Position numbers and translations under genes: made by a program. Below are positions 12,038 to 25,022 of a DNA stretch of 64,000 bases, in pieces; position 1 is the first letter of the stretch; every line of letters starts with the position of its first letter. The stretch is taken from contig NC_090336.1 in NCBI RefSeq assembly GCF_035084215.1, positions 56,482,001 through 56,546,000 on the forward strand, read 5' to 3'. The DNA comes from Heptranchias perlo (taxonomy: Eukaryota). The notes under the pieces were generated by a model. It was not told where the DNA came from, searched no databases, and was given only the letters and a program-made list of their open reading frames with translations.

Positions 12038-14946
12038 TGGTTCAGCCCTGTCCTTCAGGGAAGGGAACCTGCCAACTCTACCTGGTCTGGCCTACATGTG
12101 ACTGTAGGTCCATATTACATGGTTGACTCTTAATGCTCTCTGAAGTGCCCTATCAATCCATTCAGTTGTTAGGGAAAACTACATTTAGGCAATATATGCC
12201 AGTATTGCCATTTGCCAAGAACATATTGTATAAAAAGAACATATTTTTGACCAGACTTTTGCTCATCTCTCCCCTCGTAGCTCCATGTTCGCTTCCCTGT
12301 CTATTTCCAATTCAAGAGTTGATATATAATACTGGGGTCCCAAGTTGGAGATTTCCTCCAAAAGTGTTCCAACAATCTGATTTCAGCAAGTAGTGATTAA
12401 CTCTGAACCTGGACCTCAGAAAACAAAGGGCAGAGTTCCAGGTGATGACAAGATTTAGAAAGGGACTTCATAAGCATAAGCAATGCATGAAGAAGCTTTG
12501 CAATTGGTATTCTGTGCTAACATTTTCAGCTGATACACAAGCCTAGAAATTACTGCTGGGAACATTGGTGGGAAAATGCTGAACGCATTACATTGAGTTA
12601 CATCAAAACTATTGCACAGAAACAGGCCATTCGGCCCAACTGGTCTATGCCGGCGTTGATGCTCCACACGAGCCTCCTCCCTCCCTACTTCATCTAACCC
12701 TATCAGTATAACCTTCTATTCCTTTCTCCCTCACGTACTTATCTAGCTTCCCCTTAAATGTATCTATGCTGGCCGCCTCAACTACTCCTTGTGATAGCGC
12801 GTTCCACATTCTTACCACTCTTCGAGTAAAGAAATTTCTCCTGAATTCCTTATTGGATTTATTAGCGACTATTTTATATTTCTGACCTCGAGTTTTGGAC
12901 TCCCCCACAAGCGGAAACATTTTCTCTACGTTTACCCTATCAAACCCCTTCATTATCTTAAAGACCTCTATCAGCTCACCCTCTGCCTTTTCTTTTCTAG
13001 CGAAGAGCCCAGATTGTTCAGCCTTGCCTGATAAGTATGTCCTCTCAGTTGTGGTATCATTTTTGTGAATCATTTTTGTACTCTCTCCAATGCATCAAAT
13101 CCTTTTTATAACATGGAGACCAGAACGGTGCACAGTTCTCCAAGTGTGGCCTAACCGAGGTTCTATACAAGTTTAACATAACTTCTCTGCTTTTCAATTC
13201 TATCCCTCTAGAAATGAACCCGAATGCTTGATTTGCCTTTTTTATGACCATAATAACCTGCATTGCTACTTTTAGTGGTTTGTGTATCTGTACCCCTAGA
13301 CCCCTCTGCTCCTCTATCCCATTTAGACTCTTATCCAAGCAGTATGTGGCCTCCTTATTCTTCCTACCAAAATGCACCACCTCACACTTATCTATATTGA
13401 AATTCATTTGCCAATTACACGCCCATTCTACAGGTTTATTAATGTCCTCTTGCATTTTGACGCATTCTTCCTTTGTATTAACTACACCCTCCAACTTGGC
13501 GTCATCTGCAAATTTTGAAATTGTACTTCCAATTCCCAAATTCAAATTGTCAATGTAAATTGTGAACAACATTAGTCCCAGCACCGATCCCTGTGGAACA
13601 CCACTTCCCACCTTTTGCCAGTCTGAGTGCATACCCTTAACCCTGACTCTCAGTTTTCTGTTTTGTAGCCAACTTGCTATCTATTCTGCTACGGGTCCCC
13701 TGACTCCACATACTCTGACCTTAGTCGTGAGTCTACAATGCAGCATCTTATCGAAGGCCTTTTGAAAACCCAATTATATTACATCTACAACATTACCCAT
13801 GTCTACTCTTTCTGTTACTTCTTCAAATAATTCAATAAGGTTGATCAAGCATGATTTTCCCTTCTGAAATCCATGCTGACTACTCTTTGTTATATTTTTG
13901 TTCTCTAGATATTTTTCTATTACACCTTTGAGTAAAGATTCCATTATCTTTCCTACTACCGACGTCAAGCTAACTGGTCTATAGTTCCCTGGACAAGTTC
14001 TATCTCCCTTTTTAAATATAGGAACAACATTAGCTGTCTGCCAGTCCTCTGGCACTATTACCGTTTCTAATGACTTTTTATATATATGTAATAGTGCCTC
14101 TGCTATCTCCTCCATAACTTCTTTTAATATTCACGGATGCAATCCATCTGGACCAGGACCTTTATCCTCTCAAAGTTTGATTAGTTTATCAATTATCTCC
14201 CCCCCCCCCACCCTTTCTAGCTTAAATGTTTTAATATCTTTTTTGATCTCTTCTTCTAATTTCCTGCCCATCTTGTTAGTCTCCCTGGTAAATATGGAGG
14301 AGAAGTAACTATTCAATATTTTTGCCGTTTCACTGCCATTACCTGTGAGTTTATCTTGTGCATCCCTGAGTGGCCCTGTCCCTATCCTGATTTTTCTTTT
14401 GTTATTTATGTGTCTGTAGAATACTTTACTATTTCTTTTTTATTCCATGAGAATTTAATCTCATAGTTCTTCTTTGCTTTCCTAATTTTTTTTTTACTTC
14501 TTTCCTCTCCTTTATTGCCTATGTACTTAGAGTATGCGTTTTTCTTTAGTTTCAATTTTACCCTTAACTCTTTATTCATCCATGGTGTTTCATTATTGGC
14601 TAGTTTGTTCTTGCTTTTTAGAGGAATACATTTCTCCTGAACTCTATTGATCTCTGTTTTGAATATTTCCCATTGCTATTTCTATCTCTTTGTCTGTCAA
14701 AATTTTTTTCCAATTTACTTTCCCAAGTTCCATTCTCATCCCCTCAAAATTAGCTTTATTCCAATCTATTACTTTGGTCTTTGAGTTACTTATGTCTTTC
14801 TCAATCATTATTTTAAATCTTATTATATTATGATCACTTTTGCCTTGATGTTTCCCTATGCTTACTTCTCTTATCTGCTCCGGTTCATTTCCCATTACTG
14901 GATCCTCTATTCTTGGGCTTCTCACAAACTGGGTAAGAAAGGAGTC

Positions 14947-17900
14947 ATAGAGTCATAGAGTCATACAGCACGGATAGAGGCCCTTCGGCCCATCGTGTCC
15001 GCGCCGGCCATCAGCCCTGTCTACTCTAATCCCATATTCCAGCATTTGGTCCGTAGCCTTGTATGCTATGGCATTTCAAGTGCTCATCCAAATGCTTCTT
15101 GAATGTTGTGAGGGTTCCTGCCTCCACAACCCTTTCAGGCAGTGAGTTCCAGACTCCAACCACCCTCTGGGTGAAAAAGTTCTTTCTCAAATCCCCTCTA
15201 AACCTCCCGCCTTTTACCTTGAATCTATGTCCCCTTGTTATAGAACCCTCAACGAAGGGAAAAAGCTCCTTAGTATCCATCCTATCTGTGCCCCTCATAA
15301 TTTTGTACACCTCAATCATGTCCCCCCTCAGCCTCCTCTGCTCCAAGGAAAACAAACCCAATCTTCCCAGTCTCTCTTCATAGCTGAAGCGCTCCAGCCC
15401 TGGTAACATCCTGGTGAATCTCCTCTGCACCCTCTCCAAAGCGATCACATCCTTCCTGTAGTGTGGCGACCAGAACTGCACACAGTACTCCAGCTGTGGC
15501 CTAACCAGTGTTTTATACAGCTCCATCATAACCTCCTTGCTCTTATATTCTATGCCTCGGCTAATAAAGGCAAGTATCCCATATGCCTTCTTTACCACCT
15601 TATCTACCTGTTCCGCCGCCTTCAGGGATCTGTGAACTTGCACACCAAGATCCCTCTGACCCTCTGTCTTGCCTAGGGTCCTCCCATTCATTGTGTATTC
15701 CCTTGCCTTGTTAGTCCCTCCAAAGTGCATCACCTCGCACTTTTCCGGGTTAAATTCCATTTGCCACTGTTCCGCCCATCTGACCAACCCATCTATATCA
15801 TCCTGCAGACTGAGGCTATCCTCCTCACTATTTACCACCCTACCAATCTTTGTATCATCAGCGAACTTACTGATCATACCTTTTACATTCATATCCAAGT
15901 CATTAATGTAGACCACAAACAGCAAGGGACCCAGCACCGATCCCTGTGGTACCCCACTGGCCACAGGCTTCCAGTCACAAAAACAACCTTCGACCATCAC
16001 CCTCTGCCTTCTGCCACTAAGCCAGTTTTGTATCCAAAATGCCAAGGCACCCTGGATTCCATGGGCTCGTACCTTCTTGACCAGTCTCCTGTGGGGGATT
16101 TTATCGAAGGCCTTACTGAAATCCATGTATACCACATCCACTGCGTTACCCTCATCCACACGCCTAGTCACCCCCTCAAAAAATTCAATCAAATTAGTCA
16201 GACATGATCTTCCCTTGACAAAGCCATGTTGACTATCCCTGATTAATCCTTGCTTCTCCAAGTGGAGACTAATTTTGTCCTTCAGAATTTTTTCCAATAA
16301 TTTTCCTACCACTGATGTTAGGCTCACTGGCCTGTAGTTCCCCGGTTTTTCCCTACTCCCCTTCTTGAATAATGGTATTACATTAGCGGTTCTCCAGTCC
16401 TCTGGCACATCCCCTGTGGCCAGAGAGGTTCTGAATATATGTGTCAGAGCCCCCGCAATCTCCTCCTTTGCCTCACACAGTAGCCTGGGATACATTTCGT
16501 CCGGGCCTGGGGATTTATCCATTTTTAGGCCTGCTAAAACCGCCAATACCTCCTCCCGCTCGATGTTAATATGTTCGAGTATATCACAGTCCCCCTGCCG
16601 TATTTCTATGTCTACATCGTCCTTCTCCATAGTGAAAACAGATGCAAAAAATTCATTTAGAACCCCTCCTACATCTGCCGGCTCCACACACAGATTGCCA
16701 TTTTTGTCCCTAATGGGCCCTATTTTTTCCCTAGTCATCCTCTTACCCTTAATATACTTATAAAACATCTTAGGATTTTCCTTTATTTTGCTCGCCAGTG
16801 TTATTTCATGGCCCCTCCTTGATCTCCTAATTTCTTTTTTAAGTATCCCCCTGCACTTTTTGTACTCCTCTAGGGCTTCCTCCGTCTTTAGCCTTTTGTA
16901 TCTGCCAAAAGCCCTCCTTTTTTTCCTAATCCATTCTCGTATATCCCCTGACATCCAAGGTTCCCTGGAGTTCTTGGAACCACCCTTGACCTTTACGGGA
17001 ACATGTTGCCATTGTATGGTCTCAATCTCCCTTCTGAAAGACTCCCATTGCTCCGATGCGGATTTTCCTACAAGCAGCTGATCCCAGTCCATTTTGGCCA
17101 GATCCTGCCTTATCCTATTAAAATCGGCCTTCCCCCAATTTAGAACCTTTATTTCCGGCCCCTCCCTGTCCTTTTCCATGACCACCTTAAATCTCACCGA
17201 ATTATGGTCACTGTCACCAAAGTGCTCACCTACTAGCACTTCTTCCACTTGGCCGGCCACATTCCCTAGAATTAGGTCCAGTACCGCCCCCTCTCTTGTA
17301 GGACTTTCTACATGCTGGCTCAAAAAGCTCTCCTGGATGCACGTTAAGAATTTTGTACCCTCTAAGCCTTTTACACTCTGAGTATCCCAGTTAATATTGG
17401 GGAAGTTGAAATCCCCCACGATTATTACCCTATTATTTGCACAATTTTCTGAGATTTGCCTACATATCTGTTCCTCGATCTCCCCCTGACTGTTTGGGGG
17501 CCTATAGTACACTCCCATCAAAGTGCTTGCCCCCTTTTTGTTTTTAAGCTCCACCCATATGGCCTCATTAGAGGAACCTGCTAATATATCATCCCTCCTT
17601 ATGGCAGTAATTGATTCTTTAATTAATATTGCGACCCCCCCTCCTCTTATACCTCCCCCTCTGTCTCGCCTGAAGATTCTGTACCCCGGAATATTGAGCT
17701 GCCAGTCTTGCCCCTCCCTCAACCATGTCTCTGTGACAGCAACAATATCATACTCCCATGTGTTTATCAACACCTTCAGTTCATCCACCTTATTCGCAAG
17801 ACTCCTTGCATTAAAATAGATGCCATCCAGCCTTGCCCTTACATATTTGCCCTGTCTTCCAAGCTGACTTGTTTTTTTCTCTATATTTGGCTGCACATCA

Positions 17901-18820
17901 CCCCCTATTGTAGCTCCACTCTGTATCCCATCCCCCTGCCAAGTTAGTTTAAACCCCCCCCCAACAGTGCTAGCAAACCTCCCCGCAAGGATATTTGTCC
18001 CGCTCTGGTTCAGGTGCAACCCGTCCGACTTGTACAAGTCCCACCTTCCCCAGAAGCAGGCCCAGTGATCCAGGAAACTGAAACCTTCCCTCCTGCACCA
18101 ACTCTTTAGCCACGCATTCATCTGTTCTATCCTCCTATTTCTATACTCACTAGCCCGTGGCACTGGGAGTACTCCAGAGATTACAACCTTTGAGGTCCTG
18201 CTCTTTAATCTGCTACCTAGCTCCCTAAATTCTTGATGCAGGACCTCATCTCCCTTCCTACCTATGTCGTTGGTCCCAATGTGGACCACGACCTCTGCCT
18301 GCTCACCCTCCCCCTTGAGAATGCCCTGAAGCCGCTCAGTGACATCCATGACCCTGGCACCAGGGAGGCAACAAACCATCCTGGAGTCACGTTTACGGCC
18401 ACAGAAACGCCTGTCTGTTCCCCTTACGATAGAATCCCCTACCACTATAGCTCTTCCACTCTTTTTCCTCCCAGCCTGTGCAGCAGAGCTACCCCTGGTG
18501 CCAGGAAGTTGGCTGCTGCTGCCTACCCCTGATAAGTCATCCCCCTCAACAATATCCAAAGCGGTATATTTGTTTGAGAGGGGGACGGCCACAGGGGACC
18601 CCTGCACTGCCTGCCTGCTCTTCTTACTCTGCCTGGTGGTCATCCAATTACTTCCTGCCTGTACAACCTTTACCTGCGGTGTGACCATTTCACTAAACGT
18701 GCTATCCACGACGTTCTCAGCATCGTGAATGCTCCATAATGAATCCATCCGCAGCTCCAGTGCCGCAATGCGGTTTGTCAGTCGCTGCAGCTGGATACAT
18801 TTCCCGCACACATGGTCGTC
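14947..18820 (-). mobile_element. Young 5'-truncated CR1 LINE
   Basis: (ATAGAGTC)n 8-bp tail at the left end, AGGAGTC duplicated at 14940-14946 and 18855-18861, uninterrupted ORF. Confidence 0.96.
15026..18811 (-). CDS. CR1 ORF1-ORF2 fused reading frame, 1261 aa: CxxC/coiled coil, SGNH esterase, APE endonuclease, reverse transcriptase
   Basis: GDSIVRG, HIGTND, DGLHL (SGNH); YFNARSL, ETWL, GDFN, SDH (APE); DFSKAFD, PQGSVLGP, KFADD (RT). The true start is lost to 5' truncation. Confidence 0.9.
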   Translation of the reverse strand: MCGKCIQLQRLTNRIAALELRMDSLWSIHDAENVVDSTFSEMVTPQVKVVQAGSNWMTTRQSKKSRQAVQGSPVAVPLSNKYTALDIVEGDDLSGVGSSSQLPGTRGSSAAQAGRKKSGRAIVVGDSIVRGTDRRFCGRKRDSRMVCCLPGARVMDVTERLQGILKGEGEQAEVVVHIGTNDIGRKGDEVLHQEFRELGSRLKSRTSKVVISGVLPVPRASEYRNRRIEQMNAWLKSWCRREGFSFLDHWACFWGRWDLYKSDGLHLNQSGTNILAGRFASTVGGGFKLTWQGDGIQSGATIGGDVQPNIEKKTSQLGRQGKYVRARLDGIYFNARSLANKVDELKVLINTWEYDIVAVTETWLREGQDWQLNIPGYRIFRRDRGGGIRGGGVAILIKESITAIRRDDILAGSSNEAIWVELKNKKGASTLMGVYYRPPNSQGEIEEQICRQISENCANNRVIIVGDFNFPNINWDTQSVKGLEGTKFLTCIQESFLSQHVESPTREGAVLDLILGNVAGQVEEVLVGEHFGDSDHNSVRFKVVMEKDREGPEIKVLNWGKADFNRIRQDLAKMDWDQLLVGKSASEQWESFRREIETIQWQHVPVKVKGGSKNSREPWMSGDIREWIRKKRRAFGRYKRLKTEEALEEYKKCRGILKKEIRRSRRGHEITLASKIKENPKMFYKYIKGKRMTREKIGPIRDKNGNLCVEPADVGGVLNEFFASVFTMEKDDVDIEIRQGDCDILEHINIEREEVLAVLAGLKMDKSPGPDEMYPRLLCEAKEEIAGALTHIFRTSLATGDVPEDWRTANVIPLFKKGSREKPGNYRPVSLTSVVGKLLEKILKDKISLHLEKQGLIRDSQHGFVKGRSCLTNLIEFFEGVTRRVDEGNAVDVVYMDFSKAFDKIPHRRLVKKVRAHGIQGALAFWIQNWLSGRRQRVMVEGCFCDWKPVASGVPQGSVLGPLLFVVYINDLDMNVKGMISKFADDTKIGRVVNSEEDSLSLQDDIDGLVRWAEQWQMEFNPEKCEVMHFGGTNKAREYTMNGRTLGKTEGQRDLGVQVHRSLKAAEQVDKVVKKAYGILAFISRGIEYKSKEVMMELYKTLVRPQLEYCVQFWSPHYRKDVIALERVQRRFTRMLPGLERFSYEERLGRLGLFSLEQRRLRGDMIEVYKIMRGTDRMDTKELFPFVEGSITRGHRFKVKGGRFRGDLRKNFFTQRVVGVWNSLPERVVEAGTLTTFKKHLDEHLKCHSIQGYGPNAGIWD

Positions 18821-18965
18821 ATGTGTTTTGGAATGGAGTTTTTACAGTGTGTACAGGAGTCCTGTACACACTGTAAAAACTCCATTCCCTTTCCCCACCT
18901 CTTCTTACCAGTTTACTTGGGGGTAGTTGAAATCGCCCATGATTATTATTCAATGCTTTTTACTC

Positions 18966-19033
18966 ATTTCATAGATTTGTCTACATAGATTTCATAGATT
19001 TGTCTACATAGATTTCATAGATTTGTCTACATA
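18966..19033. repeat. 23-bp tandem triplication (ATTTCATAGATTTGTCTACATAG) inside the old CR1
   Basis: Three direct copies. Confidence 0.9.
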
Positions 19034-19638
19034 TTTCATCCTCCACTTCCCTTCCACTATTAGCTGGTCTGTAGAATATACCTATTAACATGATCAATCC
19101 CTTCTTATCCTTTGTCTCAATCCATACGGATTCTGTTTCTATCTTAATGTTATTTATGTCCCTTTTTTCTATTGCCATTATGGTGTCTCTAATTAGTACA
19201 GCTACCCCACTCCCTTCTTCCTTCCCTATCCTTTCTAAATACATTATACCCTGCAACATTTAACTGCCAATCCTGTTCCTTATGTAGCCTTGTTTCAGTT
19301 ATCCCTACCGCATCTGGCTCCTCGTTATGAATTATTGCCTCCAGTTCCCCAGTTTTGTTTCAGATGCTGTGCAAATTGCTGTACAGGCAATTTAATTTGT
19401 TTTTGGTAATTGTTCCCCTCACTTTATTTTTAAAACATTTTGTACTAATGTTCTATAACTGTAATTGTTCCCTGACTGTTTATGTTACATTTATTCCTTA
19501 TCTTGGTCTGACCTTTGCTCTCATTTCCTATTTCTTTTATCTTCAAACTTATGTTATCGTCACCAGATCCCTCCCCCCATCTTACTAGTTGAAATTCCTA
19601 TTAACAGCCCTATTTATCCTTTCTGCGAGGACATTGGA

Positions 19639-19859
19639 TGTTAATTGTATCCATGTGATTTATATCAATTACTGTTAACTGTATTCAGGTGGCAGGTATC
19701 AATTGATATATTGTATATATATTGTATCCATATGTAAGAAAGCTTATCCAGGGTGTGGTGTGGGCATAATGTGAAGCTCTGTGAATAAAGGCTTGGAAGC
19801 AACTGAAGACCAGGCTCTGGTATTCTATCCTTCACCACCTGGCTATCCAATTTATAAGA
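19639..19859 (+). mobile_element. Probable solo LTR (about 220 bp)
   Basis: Interrupts CR1 ORF1; starts TGTTAA, ends TATAAGA (degenerate ...AACA), AATAAA at 19784-19789, imperfect 5-bp TSD TTGGA/CTGGT. Confidence 0.65.
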
Positions 19860-20284
19860 CTGGTCCCACTAAGGTTCAGGTCGAGCCTGTCGCAACGGTA
19901 CAGCTCCTTCCTGTCCCAGTATTGGTGCCAGTGTCCCATGAAATGGAACCCCTCCTTCCCACACCAGTCTTTTAGCCAATCATTCACCATCCTGATCTGC
20001 CTATCCCCATGCCAATTAGCACGTGGCTCGGGTAGTAATCCCAGGGTTACCACCCATGACGTCCTTTTCTTTTTAAATTTAGTTCCGAACTTCTGATATT
20101 CTCTCGGCAGGACCTCCTCCCTTTTCTTCCCTATGTCATTGGTCCCAACATGGACCACGACAACTGGATCCAGTCCCTCCCTTTCCAAGTTCCTCTCCAG
20201 TTGCTCCGAAATATCCTTTACCCTTGCACCAGGAAGGCAACACACCCTCCTGGACTCTCGGTCGCAACTGCAGAGGATCTCGTA

Positions 20285-21894: not shown

Positions 21895-24515
21895 TTATAG
21901 AATCATAGAATCATAGAAGTTACAACATGGAAACAGGCCAATCGGCCCAACATGTCCATGTCGCCCAGTTTATACCACTAAGCTAGTCCCAATTGCCTGC
22001 ACTTGGCCCATATCCCTCTATACCCATCTTACCCATGTAACTGTCCAAATGCTTTTTCAAAGACAAAATTGTACCCGCCTCTACTACTGCCTCTGGCAGC
22101 TCGTTTCAGACACTCACCACCCTTTGAGTGAAAAAATTGCCCCTCTGGACCCTTTTGTATCTCTCCCCTCTCACCTTAAATCTATGCCCCCTCGTTATAG
22201 ACTCCCCTACCTTTGGGAAAAGATTTTGACTATCTACCTTATCTATGCCCCTCATTATTTTATAGACTTCTATAAGATCACCCCTTAACCTCCTACTCTC
22301 CAGGGAAAAAAGTCCCAGTCTGTCTAACCTCTCCCTATAAGTCAAACCATCAAGTCCCGGTAGCATCCTAGTAAATCTTTTTTGCACTCTATCTCATTCA
22401 ATAATATCCTTTCTATAATAGGGTGACCAGAACTGTACACAGTACTCCAAGTGTGGCCTCACCAATGCCCTGTACAACTTCAACAAGACATCCCAACTCC
22501 TGCATTCAATGTTCTGACCAATGAAACCAAGCATGCCGAATGCCTTCTTCACCACCCTATCCACCTGTGACTCCACTTTCAAGGAGCTATGAACCTGTAC
22601 TCCTAGATCTCTTTGTTCTATAACTCTCCCCAACGCCCTACCATTAACGGAGTAGGTCCTGGCCCGATTCGATCTACCAAAATGCATCACCTCACATTTA
22701 TCTAAATTAAACTCCATCTGCCATTCATCGGCCCACTGGCCCAATTTATCAAGATCCCGTTGCAATCCTCGATAACCTTCTTCACTCTCCACAATGCCAC
22801 CAATCTTGGTGTCATCTGCAAACTTACTAACCATGCCTCCTAAATTCTCATCCAAATCATTAATATAAATAACAAATAACAGCGGACCCAGCACCGATCC
22901 CTGAGGCACACCGCTGGACACAGGCATCCAGTTTGAAAAACAACCCTCTACAACCACCCTCTGTCTTCTGTCGTCAAGCCAATTTTGTATCCAATTGGCT
23001 ACCTCACCTTGGATCCCATGAGATTTAACCTTATGTAACAACCTACCATGCGGTACCTTGTCAAAGGCTTTGCTGAAGTCCATGTAGACCACGTCTACTG
23101 CACAGCCCTCATCTATCTTCTTGGTTACCCCTTCAAAAAACTCAATCAAATTCGTGAGACATGATTTTCCTCTCACAAAACCATGCTGACTGTTCCTAAT
23201 CAGTCCCTGCCTCTCCAAATGCCTGTAGATCCTGTCCCTCAGAATACCCTCTAACAACTTACCCACTACAGATGTCAGGCTCACCGGTCTGTAGTTCCCA
23301 GGCTTTTTCCTGCCTCCCTTCTTAAACAAAGGCACAACATTTGCTACCCTCCAGTCTTCAGGCACCTCACCTGTAGTGGTGGATGATTCAAATATCTCTG
23401 CTAGGGGACCCGCAATTTCCTCCCTAACCTCCCATAATGTCCTGGGATACATTTCATCAGGTCCCGGAGATTTATCTACCTTGATGCGCGTTAAGACTTC
23501 CAGCACCTCCCTCTCTGTAATATGTACACTCCTCAAGACATCACTATTTATTTCCCCAAGTTCCCTAACATCCATGCCTTTCTCAACCGTAAATACCGAT
23601 GTGAAATATTCATTCAGGATCTCACCCATCTCTTGTGGTTCCGCACATAGATGACCTTGTTGATCCTTAAGAGGCCCTACTCTCTCCCTAGTTACTCTTT
23701 TGCCCTTTATGTATTTGTAGAAGCTCTTTGGATTCTCCTTTGCCTTATCTGCCAAAGCAATCTCATGTCCACTTTTTGCACTCCTGATTTCTCTCCTAAC
23801 TCTACTCCGGCAATCTCTATACTCTTCAAGGGATCCACTTGATCCCAGCTGCCTATGCACGTCATATGCCTCCTTCTTCTTTTTGACTAGGGCCTCAATC
23901 TCCCGAGTCATCCAAGGTTCCCTACTTCTACCAGCCTTGCCCTTCACTTTATAAGGAATGTGCTTACCCTGAAGTCTAGTTAACACACTTTTGAAAGCCT
24001 CCCACTTAGCAGACGTCCCTTTGCCTGCCAACAGACTCTCCCAATCAACTTCTGAAAGTTCCTGTCTAATACCATCAAAATTGGCCTTTCCCCAATTTAG
24101 AATTTTAACTTTTGGGCCAGACCTATCATTCTCCATAGCTATCCTAAAACTAATGGAATTATGATCACTGGTCCCAAAGTGATCCCTCACTAACACTTCT
24201 GTCACCTGCCCTTCCTTATTTCCCAAGAGGAGGTCAAGTTTTGCCCCCTCTCTAGTCGGGCCATCCACATACTGAATGAGAAATTCCTCCTGAATACACT
24301 CAACAAATTTCTCCCCATCCAAGCCCCTAATGCTATGGCTGTCCCAGTCAATGTTGGGAAAGTTAAAGTCCCCTACTATTACCACCCTATTTTTCTTGCA
24401 GCTGTCTGTAATCTCCTTACATATTTGCTCCTCAATTTCCCGTTGACTATTTGGGGGTCTGTAGTACAATCCTATCAAAGTGATCTCTCCCTTCTTATTT
24501 TTCAGTTCTACCCCT
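21895..24515 (-). mobile_element. 5'-truncated CR1 LINE (ORF2 APE+RT; in-frame ORFs 24478-22394 and 22387-22106)
   Basis: YYRPPN, GDFN, SDH, DFSKAFD, KFADD motifs; (ATAGAATC)n tail; premature stops. Confidence 0.95.
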
Positions 24516-25022
24516 GTGTCATTTTATCTGACATAAAATACATGAATGAACAAATACCAATTTTTCAATGGGTTTTGCCTACTTTCTATCACTTCATATC
24601 ATCAAATTCAATAAATGAGACTAACTTTGCCCTTGGTGATGGCCCTAACTCACTTTACAGGACTGTAATGTGGCACTAACCTTTCTTATTGCTTTGCACA
24701 TGTTCACGCCTCAACCTAGAGTCTCTCGTGGACTTCCTCTGGCTGGAGCAAAAGACTCTTCTGCCTCCCTCACAGTTCCAAACTCCGCACATGGTCTTTT
24801 TTTCCACACTCACAGAGGGGATGCCAAAAACTTGACCTCTGACCCTAGGCTAGGTTAATATGAAAGTTTGCAAATAAAACATGTATCCCATGTACTAAAT
24901 TTAATATACAATAGATTTCTCTAGATTTTACGTATTTTGTATTTTTTTTAAGTAGCACCTCTATCTATAACTCTCAACGCCGCCTCTCTTTTATCACGTG
25001 TAAATATTTTTCAATAAGTACT

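What the first reader, a model, noticed from the sequence alone, without database searches (positions are those of the whole stretch)
17900..17965. Coronavirus-type slippery heptamer U_UUA_AAC at the CR1 ORF1/ORF2 junction: candidate programmed -1 ribosomal frameshift in a LINE
Seen: on the minus strand the esterase (ORF1) region ends in GGGGGGGGG-TTTAAAC-TAA (heptamer 17953-17947), followed after a short spacer by a G-rich tract (GGCAGGGGGATGGG). Two other, clearly diverged CR1 copies show the same layout at the same position: GCT TTA AAC TAA..GGGGAGGAGGGG (36584-36575) and AAT TTC AAC TAG..GGGGGGAGGG (19594-19585, one substitution; its -1 frame stays open for about 45 codons toward the APE domain). 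There is no Met between the junction and the first APE motifs in the intact copy. Established: U_UUA_AAC is a canonical X_XXY_YYZ -1 slippery site, as in coronavirus ORF1a/1b, whereas mammalian L1 ORF2 uses termination/reinitiation. Inference: these CR1s make ORF2 as a Gag-Pol-like ORF1-ORF2 fusion, possibly stimulated by a G-rich structure. Overlapping ORFs have been described in some CR1s; I do not know whether frameshifting has been shown experimentally.
Basis: partly seen in the sequence, partly recalled or inferred. Interest (0 to 1): 0.85.

Follow-up and report, generated by a model that had tools for sequence, protein, structure and literature searches.

The report
Conserved frameshift site in CR1 LINEs
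An abundant vertebrate jumping gene (a CR1 LINE) ends its first gene with the same seven-letter slippery sequence and a stop in nearly all the distant lineages examined, and its second gene continues one base back without a shared start codon, so its copying enzyme is likely made by ribosomes slipping one base, as in retroviruses.

Summary
The slippery site is real and conserved, but the copy given cannot show it. An extra G just before TTTAAAC puts ORF1 and ORF2 of this copy in one 1271-codon frame. That variant occurs in 151 of 1328 family copies. It is not a clade, and a control G-run gains a base about as often (15 of 100). Most copies (76 of 100 listed) end ORF1 at GGT-TTA-AAC-TAA, with ORF2 in the -1 frame.

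Across 29 lineages (this genome plus metagenome contigs, some only about 45% alike), all three wobble bases of the heptamer are fixed. Agreement is 0.94, against at most 0.79 in 446 control triplets. The linker is open only in the -1 frame (26 stops against 134 and 177), and no ATG is shared. A GGGGG tract lies 10 nt downstream, with no conserved hairpin.

Best reading (about 0.75): programmed -1 frameshifting makes an ORF1-ORF2 fusion. Main rival: reinitiation (about 0.15). No translation was measured. I found no CR1 frameshift paper in 10 searches, but the original CR1 papers were not held. The scan noted the same signal before in other genomes.

The parts
17947..17953 (-). Slippery heptamer T_TTA_AAC (X_XXY_YYZ), the last three wobble/codon positions of ORF1
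   Evidence: conservation
17944..17946 (-). TAA, the ORF1 stop in G8 copies; out of ORF1's frame in this G9 copy
17954..17962 (-). G9 run; family majority is G8. The extra G fuses ORF1 and ORF2 in this copy
17927..17940 (-). Conserved G-rich tract (GG-CA-GGGGG-AT-GGG); GGGGG starts 11 nt after the heptamer; candidate stimulator
   Evidence: position profile; Gly codon bias; loose ends at 17926-17927
17963..18821 (-). 5'-truncated ORF1: part of the Cys-rich N-terminus and the SGNH/GDSL esterase (Pfam PF13472 at about 17999-18442)
17825..17943 (-). Linker, open in the ORF2 (-1) frame, no ATG
15026..17824 (-). ORF2 APE endonuclease and reverse transcriptase, no stops; first Met at 17518-17516, inside APE
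14941..15025 (-). 3' UTR ending in short tandem repeats (ACTCTATG type)
19585..19594 (-). Junction of an older CR1 that hosts the young copy: TTTCAAC plus TAG, -1 frame open 49 codons
36575..36584 (-). Junction of a third, decayed CR1: TTTAAAC plus TAA, then a G-tract

Best explanation
Esterase-type CR1 LINEs end ORF1 with U_UUA_AAC plus a stop and continue ORF2 one base back, and ORF2 is likely made by programmed -1 ribosomal frameshifting as an ORF1-ORF2 fusion. Shown: the layout, the fixed wobble bases, the open -1 linker, the lack of a shared ATG and the fixed position of the G-tract. Inferred: most ribosomes stop at UAA/UAG and release ORF1p. A minority, with Leu and Asn tRNAs on UUA-AAC, would slip to UUU-AAA, read CUA next (transframe x-L-N-L) and run through a 30-80 residue variable linker into APE and RT. 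The pause likely comes from the adjacent stop codon and from the GGGGG tract 10 nt downstream, acting as a sequence signal rather than a hairpin. The G9 form of this window's copy is a recurrent homopolymer slip, not part of the mechanism.
For: (1) Wobble bases, 29 lineages. The codon before Leu ends in T in 27 of 29 though it encodes A, G, T, C or S. Leu is TTA in 28 of 28 and Asn is AAC in 26 of 26. TTA is 754 of 3700 Leu codons and AAC 838 of 2399 Asn codons elsewhere in these elements. Junction triplet agreement is 0.94; the best of 446 background triplets is 0.79, median 0.53.
(2) Depth. The genome's lineages and the metagenome lineages share only about 45% of bases on mapped codons, yet 12 of 14 amniote-type loci keep TTTAAAC. 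L131 has G_TTA_AAC-TAG with APE in -1.
(3) Proteins. 55 of 97 ORF1 relatives from sharks, rays, frogs, a turtle and a lizard end in xLN; x takes 12 residues, 54 of 55 compatible with a T-ending codon.
(4) Stops between junction and APE: 26 in the -1 frame, 134 in 0 and 177 in +1, over 1626 codons in 30 copies.
(5) In 7 of 29 representative copies a -1-frame stop lies one codon (Gly or Asp) before the TTT, and no representative has an upstream ATG. ORF2 cannot start upstream there, so F-K-L coding cannot explain the fixed bases.
(6) The young family (98-99% identical copies) has no Met until about 100 codons into APE.
(7) U_UUA_AAC is among the most shift-prone heptamers on mammalian ribosomes (PMC5009743, passages).
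Against: No translation was measured. No conserved hairpin or pseudoknot follows the site: z-scores scatter around zero and only 1 of 28 folded copies reached -2. No conserved long-range partner was found. Efficiency could therefore be low. 6 of 14 amniote-type loci have ATG two bases after the stop, and 4 more have GTG or TTG, a layout that fits reinitiation. Many vertebrate CR1s have lost ORF1 (PMC13343379, passages), so ORF2p does not need an ORF1 part. Lineages share ancestry, and many clusters are single decayed copies, so 29 overstates independence (14 clusters at the looser cut). 37 of 121 anchored copies were out of register and dropped from the codon test. The protein-level test is weak because buried positions nearby also avoid K/Q/E/M/W.
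Confidence: 0.75

Rival explanations
1. Termination-reinitiation. Ribosomes stop at the ORF1 stop and restart a few bases on, at AUG or a non-AUG codon in the -1 frame, making a separate ORF2p as in SART1 and L1. The heptamer and G-tract would be a ribosome-retention signal.
For: This is the described route for SART1 and L1 (PMC2881922 and PMC3708506, passages). 10 of 14 amniote-type loci have ATG, GTG or TTG right after the stop. No frameshift-type RNA structure was found. AUG-independence of L1 ORF2 is recalled, not read.
Against: The same codon is TGG, AGA, AGG, GGT, TCG or TCC in other lineages. The young family has no Met before the middle of APE. Reinitiation does not predict an exact X_XXY_YYZ word in register with the stop, including the G_UUA_AAC variant in L131.
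Confidence: 0.15
2. ORF2 is made from RNAs that gained one base by polymerase slippage in the G-run or the T/A runs, giving in-frame fusion transcripts like this window's G9 copy; or G9 elements are the active form.
For: 151 of 1328 copies have a 9-nt spacer. Some have later substitutions inside it, so part of this class is real DNA. Two stingray gene models show the same in-frame join (P0027, P0098).
Against: A G7 run inside ORF2, where an extra base destroys the frame, shows +1 in 15 of 100 and +2 in 4 of 100 listed copies, against 15 and 2 of 100 at the junction. G9 sits on both alleles of two linked SNPs, as does G8, so it is not one clade. Many lineages have no G-run before the heptamer. 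Inference: with cis preference, slipped RNAs would dominate new copies, but G8 does. The G8 form appears in all 8 public runs laid.
Confidence: 0.04
3. No signal. xLN is needed for the esterase's last helix, the codons are kept by ancestry or bias, and ORF2 is made from a spliced or separately started RNA.
For: Within this genome alone several other wobble positions are also well kept. LN is conserved as amino acids.
Against: With distant lineages added, conserved Leu columns share a codon in only 0.29-0.85 of lineages and Asn columns in 0.62-0.86, against 1.0 at the junction. No joints were seen in the contigs laid, which is weak evidence because contigs show presence, not absence.
Confidence: 0.06

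Closest known systems
Canonical vertebrate CR1 LINE with esterase (type IV) ORF1
   Same: Cys-rich N-terminus plus SGNH esterase ORF1, APE-RT ORF2, short-repeat 3' tail (PMC4120745 and PMC13343379, passages)
   Different: The passages seen give no translation route for ORF2; the word frameshift does not occur in those two papers or in PMC3905857
Dictyostelium TRE5-A and TRE3-A (APE-type LINEs)
   Same: Said to require a -1 frameshift for ORF2 (PMC5911963, figure legend)
   Different: Other host and ORF1 type. Whether the shift was measured, and on which heptamer, I did not see
Coronavirus ORF1a/1b and retroviral gag-pol -1 frameshift sites
   Same: U_UUA_AAC heptamer (IBV site per PMC5009743); structural protein fused to the polymerase at low rate
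   Different: No conserved pseudoknot or hairpin found; the stop directly follows the heptamer; no protease domain was found to split the fusion
PRRSV nsp1beta/PCBP protein-stimulated frameshift
   Same: A short low-complexity motif 11 nt 3' of the shift site replaces RNA structure (PMC5009743); here GGGGG starts at +11
   Different: G-rich instead of C-rich; no binding protein is known or tested here
Penelope-like elements with ORF1 separated by a frameshift and pseudoknot
   Same: Non-LTR-type retroelement with a frameshift drawn after ORF1 (PMC8557442, figure legend)
   Different: Different RT class; pseudoknot present there, not found here
SART1 and L1 termination-reinitiation
   Same: Bicistronic LINE RNA in which ORF2 depends on ORF1 translation
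   Different: SART1 uses an overlapping UAAUG; no shared start codon exists here

Membership tests
CR1 LINE, esterase ORF1 | ORF2 with APE endonuclease and RT | tested here: met
   PF03372/PF14529 and PF00078
CR1 LINE, esterase ORF1 | SGNH esterase ORF1 with Cys-rich N-terminus | tested here: met
   PF13472; 316-aa ORF1 in three G8 siblings; vertebrate relatives
CR1 LINE, esterase ORF1 | 3' tail of short tandem repeats, no poly(A); frequent 5' truncation | tested here: met
   the feature list is partly recalled
CR1 LINE, esterase ORF1 | RT phylogeny places it in CR1 rather than L2 | not tested
   No tree with named references was built; the label rests on layout and on recalled CR1 features
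Programmed -1 ribosomal frameshift | X_XXY_YYZ heptamer in register with the upstream frame | tested here: met
   73 of 84 in-register copies TTTAAAC; not in register in this G9 copy
Programmed -1 ribosomal frameshift | Downstream ORF open in -1 from the heptamer, no own shared start | tested here: met
Programmed -1 ribosomal frameshift | Conservation at synonymous positions | tested here: met
Programmed -1 ribosomal frameshift | Stimulatory hairpin or pseudoknot 5-9 nt downstream | tested here: not met
   No conserved stable fold in 28 copies; no Rfam match in the window. Pseudoknots were not predicted directly, but the region is C-poor
Programmed -1 ribosomal frameshift | Some other 3' stimulator (protein-bound motif, G-quadruplex) | tested here: inconclusive
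   G-tract fixed in position; a G-quadruplex entered the best fold in 13 of 28 copies
Programmed -1 ribosomal frameshift | Measured frameshifting or a transframe product | not testable with these tools
   Needs reporters, ribosome profiling or mass spectrometry
Termination-reinitiation (SART1 type) | Conserved start codon overlapping or next to the ORF1 stop | tested here: not met
   ATG in 6 of 14 amniote-type loci, none in the young family

The most novel reading that the evidence does not exclude
Vertebrate CR1 LINEs share an ancient, structure-free -1 frameshift cassette: U_UUA_AAC, stop, 7 nt, GGGGG. The G-tract sits at the same +11 position as the protein-binding motif of PRRSV and is bound by a host G-tract-binding protein or by ORF1p itself. 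The ratio of ORF1p to ORF1-ORF2 fusion, and so the jumping rate, would then be regulated in trans, and ORF2p would be carried into the particle through its ORF1 part like Gag-Pol.
Probability: 0.25. Interest if true: 0.9.

Novelty: new variant of a known kind. Interest (0 to 1): 0.72.

Why it matters
CR1-group elements are the dominant retrotransposons in most vertebrate species (PMC13343379, abstract). How LINE ORF2 is translated is described as unclear outside SART1 and L1 (PMC3708506, passage). A conserved viral-type -1 site gives an exact, cheap test and predicts a Gag-Pol-like fusion in a LINE. It also means that CR1 ORF2 models starting at the first Met are truncated, and that single-ORF CR1 copies can be homopolymer slips. 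If the G-tract stimulates without structure, it would be a natural stimulator of a little-known type: the 2016 review knew no natural G-quadruplex case and described one protein-activated case in the passages seen.

Tried and rejected
G9 as an active fused sub-lineage: rejected. I first suspected it because one search listed almost only G9 copies of the young family. That is most likely an artefact of my pattern's last letter, which would exclude G8 copies of that family. One search's sample therefore over-represents indel copies in some families.

First clustering was spoiled by non-homologous flanks of truncated copies and was redone on tblastn-mapped codons. mis-registered two single copies whose own stop had mutated; one search corrects this.

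Local folding: no conserved structure. Long-range pairing of the G-tract: the best partners scatter, and recurring ones are the few C-rich spots or the pyrimidine arm of the 3' UTR; no support. Rfam: nothing.

Viral contigs: no relative. Prokaryote genomes: 3 distant hits, uninformative. Longer fused proteins: 2 gene models only, weak evidence either way. Sequencing runs: no RNA holder listed; only contigs could be laid, so expression and G8:G9 read ratios were not obtained.

Literature: 10 searches found no report of CR1 frameshifting. Kapitonov and Jurka 2003, Haas 2001, the turtle CR1 paper, the SART1 paper and the L1 ORF2 paper were not held, so an older suggestion in print cannot be excluded. 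No supplements were read.
Full report
What the window holds. The finding lies in a young CR1-type LINE on the minus strand, about 18821 to 14941. It is inserted into an older CR1 and is 5'-truncated; siblings are 98-99% identical. Pfam finds an SGNH esterase, an APE endonuclease and an RT. The closest ORF1 proteins are from cartilaginous fish.

Is the fused form the rule? No. A pattern with a free spacer found 1328 copies. Of the first 100 listed, 76 have 8 nt, 15 have 9, 4 have 7 and 5 have other lengths. Genome-wide, 151 of 1328 have 9. With 8 Gs, ORF1 ends GGT-TTA-AAC-TAA and ORF2 runs in the -1 frame. G9 is found on both alleles of two linked SNPs among 36 aligned copies, so it arose repeatedly. 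A G7 run inside ORF2, where a gain is destructive, gains one base in 15 of 100 and two in 4 of 100 listed copies. Contigs from 8 public runs all include the one-G-shorter form. G9 is therefore an ordinary homopolymer slip, in part real DNA and possibly in part assembly error.

Is the heptamer conserved beyond chance? I sampled the first 100 of 6593 genome matches to a degenerate esterase motif that does not include the junction. The pattern's last letter biased this sample against in-register copies of some families. 75 of 100 carry TTTAAAC 40-110 nt after the motif, 70 followed by TAA or TAG, against 14 of 1600 control windows. I added 11 G8 copies and 15 of the 50 metagenome loci, those that reach the junction. 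Of these 126 sequences, 124 mapped by tblastn, 121 could be anchored, 84 were in register and 37 were dropped. They form 29 clusters: 20 from this genome, 8 amniote-type (label recalled, from resemblance to bird CR1) and one unplaced (L131). Genome and metagenome groups are about 45% alike.

Is it conserved beyond protein need? Yes. The codon before Leu ends in T in 27 of 29 clusters while its amino acid varies. Leu is TTA in 28 of 28 and Asn is AAC in 26 of 26. Twelve other conserved Leu columns share a codon in 0.29-0.85 of clusters, and five Asn columns in 0.62-0.86. Mean third-base agreement over the three junction codons is 0.94 with nothing dropped; the best of 446 background triplets is 0.79. 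In one search no substitution at 5% or more was listed in the heptamer, the stop or the G-tract, while 25 rows were listed nearby. At protein level, 55 of 97 ORF1 relatives end in xLN, nearly all 26 residues after the D of the DGLHL motif. Clusters are related and many are single decayed copies, so the count of 29 is not 29 independent trials. The signal is weaker within this genome alone and rests on the distant lineages.

Could the overlap with ORF2 explain it? The fixed bases are first positions of F-K-L in the -1 frame. But in 7 of 29 representative copies a -1-frame stop lies one codon before the TTT, the overlap is 1-5 codons in most, and none has an ATG there. ORF2 cannot begin upstream in those lineages, so that constraint does not apply.

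Is the -1 frame translated from the junction on? Among 62 copies with a mapped APE start, 40 are -1, 13 are +1 and 9 are 0; the exceptions are decayed copies, often with indels in G-runs. Recurrent linker lengths of 98, 122, 161 and 194 nt are all -1; one noisy lineage has 195 twice in 8 copies. Counting the young family once, 30 copies have 26 stops in the -1 frame, 134 in frame 0 and 177 in +1. The young family has no Met until 148 codons after the junction. Against this reading, 6 of 14 amniote-type loci have ATG two bases after the stop, 3 GTG and 1 TTG; 4 have TGG, TCG or TCC.

The stimulator. G is 0.81-0.89 at +11 to +15 after the heptamer and 0.74-0.87 at +18 to +19 across 27 clusters. 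The Gly codon at +12 to +14 is GGG in 22 of 23 Gly cases, against 1528 of 3653 elsewhere; G-run expansions inflate this somewhat. Contigs of related lineages stop matching at 17926-17927, the end of the tract. No conserved hairpin was found, and a G-quadruplex entered the best fold in 13 of 28 copies. No long-range partner recurs convincingly. The +11 position equals that of the PRRSV protein-binding motif (PMC5009743). That is a resemblance, not a test.

Mechanism. Shown: layout, conservation, open frame, no shared start. Inferred: tandem -1 slippage at U_UUA_AAC at a low rate, helped by the adjacent stop and the G-tract, giving an ORF1-linker-APE-RT fusion. ORF1p of the related ZfL2-1 element dimerises through its N-terminal coiled coil (PMC3905857, passage), so the fusion could co-assemble with free ORF1p; this is speculation. 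ORF1-less CR1s exist, so the fusion is likely a ratio-setting device and not a need of ORF2p. I put frameshifting at 0.75, reinitiation at 0.15, no signal at 0.06 and transcriptional slippage at 0.04.

What is known. Papers were seen as search listings and keyword passages only: PMC2881922, PMC4255032, PMC5009743 (first 300,000 of 449,034 characters held; CR1 absent there), PMC5911963, PMC13343379, PMC3708506, PMC4120745, PMC3905857, PMC8557442, PMC5408684 and 10.1101/788562. A -1 frameshift is stated for Dictyostelium TRE5-A and TRE3-A and drawn for some Penelope-like elements. Ten searches found none for CR1, but five key older papers were not held and no supplements were read. Earlier AI notes of this scan describe the same signal in other genomes. 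They gave me the TRE5-A and Penelope leads and are not independent support.

Verdict. A real, deeply conserved recoding signal, best read as a programmed -1 frameshift: a new variant of a known kind, untested at the bench. The specific copy flagged is an in-frame G9 variant and should not be used as the test sequence.

Noticed in passing
window 18830-18888: A perfect 29-nt inverted repeat (1-nt loop) at the 5' junction of the young copy: the flanking DNA of the older host CR1 is duplicated in reverse just before the truncated element starts. It looks like a fold-back or template switch during insertion.
   Followed up: partly
window 12708-20275, minus strand: An older CR1 is split by the young copy at about APE residue 152, carries a roughly 230-nt foreign insert near the end of its ORF1, and has three 23-nt tandem copies at 18966-19034.
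   Followed up: partly
whole window: About a dozen further CR1 ORF2 fragments, including a 709-codon open piece at 22394-24523. No host gene was looked for.
   Followed up: no
G000, G-runs of the young family: G-runs gain bases more often than they lose them (control run: 19 gains, 0 losses in 100; junction run: 19 gains, 5 losses in 100). This could reflect the RT's slippage bias or assembly error.
   Followed up: partly
L131:606-830: A distant CR1-like element in a metagenome contig, host unknown, with G_TTA_AAC-TAG-TAG, a G-tract and APE in the -1 frame. Recalled: G_UUA_AAC is the equine arteritis virus site; one search shows only G_UU(A) for it.
   Followed up: partly
P0006, P0018, P0098, P0099: A CR1 ORF1 64% identical to this one is labelled Pseudomonas aeruginosa in the database, likely contamination. 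Several fish and frog gene models named after host genes contain CR1 ORF1.
   Followed up: no
junction stop codon, 29 clusters: The commonest ORF1 stop per cluster is TAA or TAG and never TGA, although TGA would also give Leu in the -1 frame.
   Followed up: no
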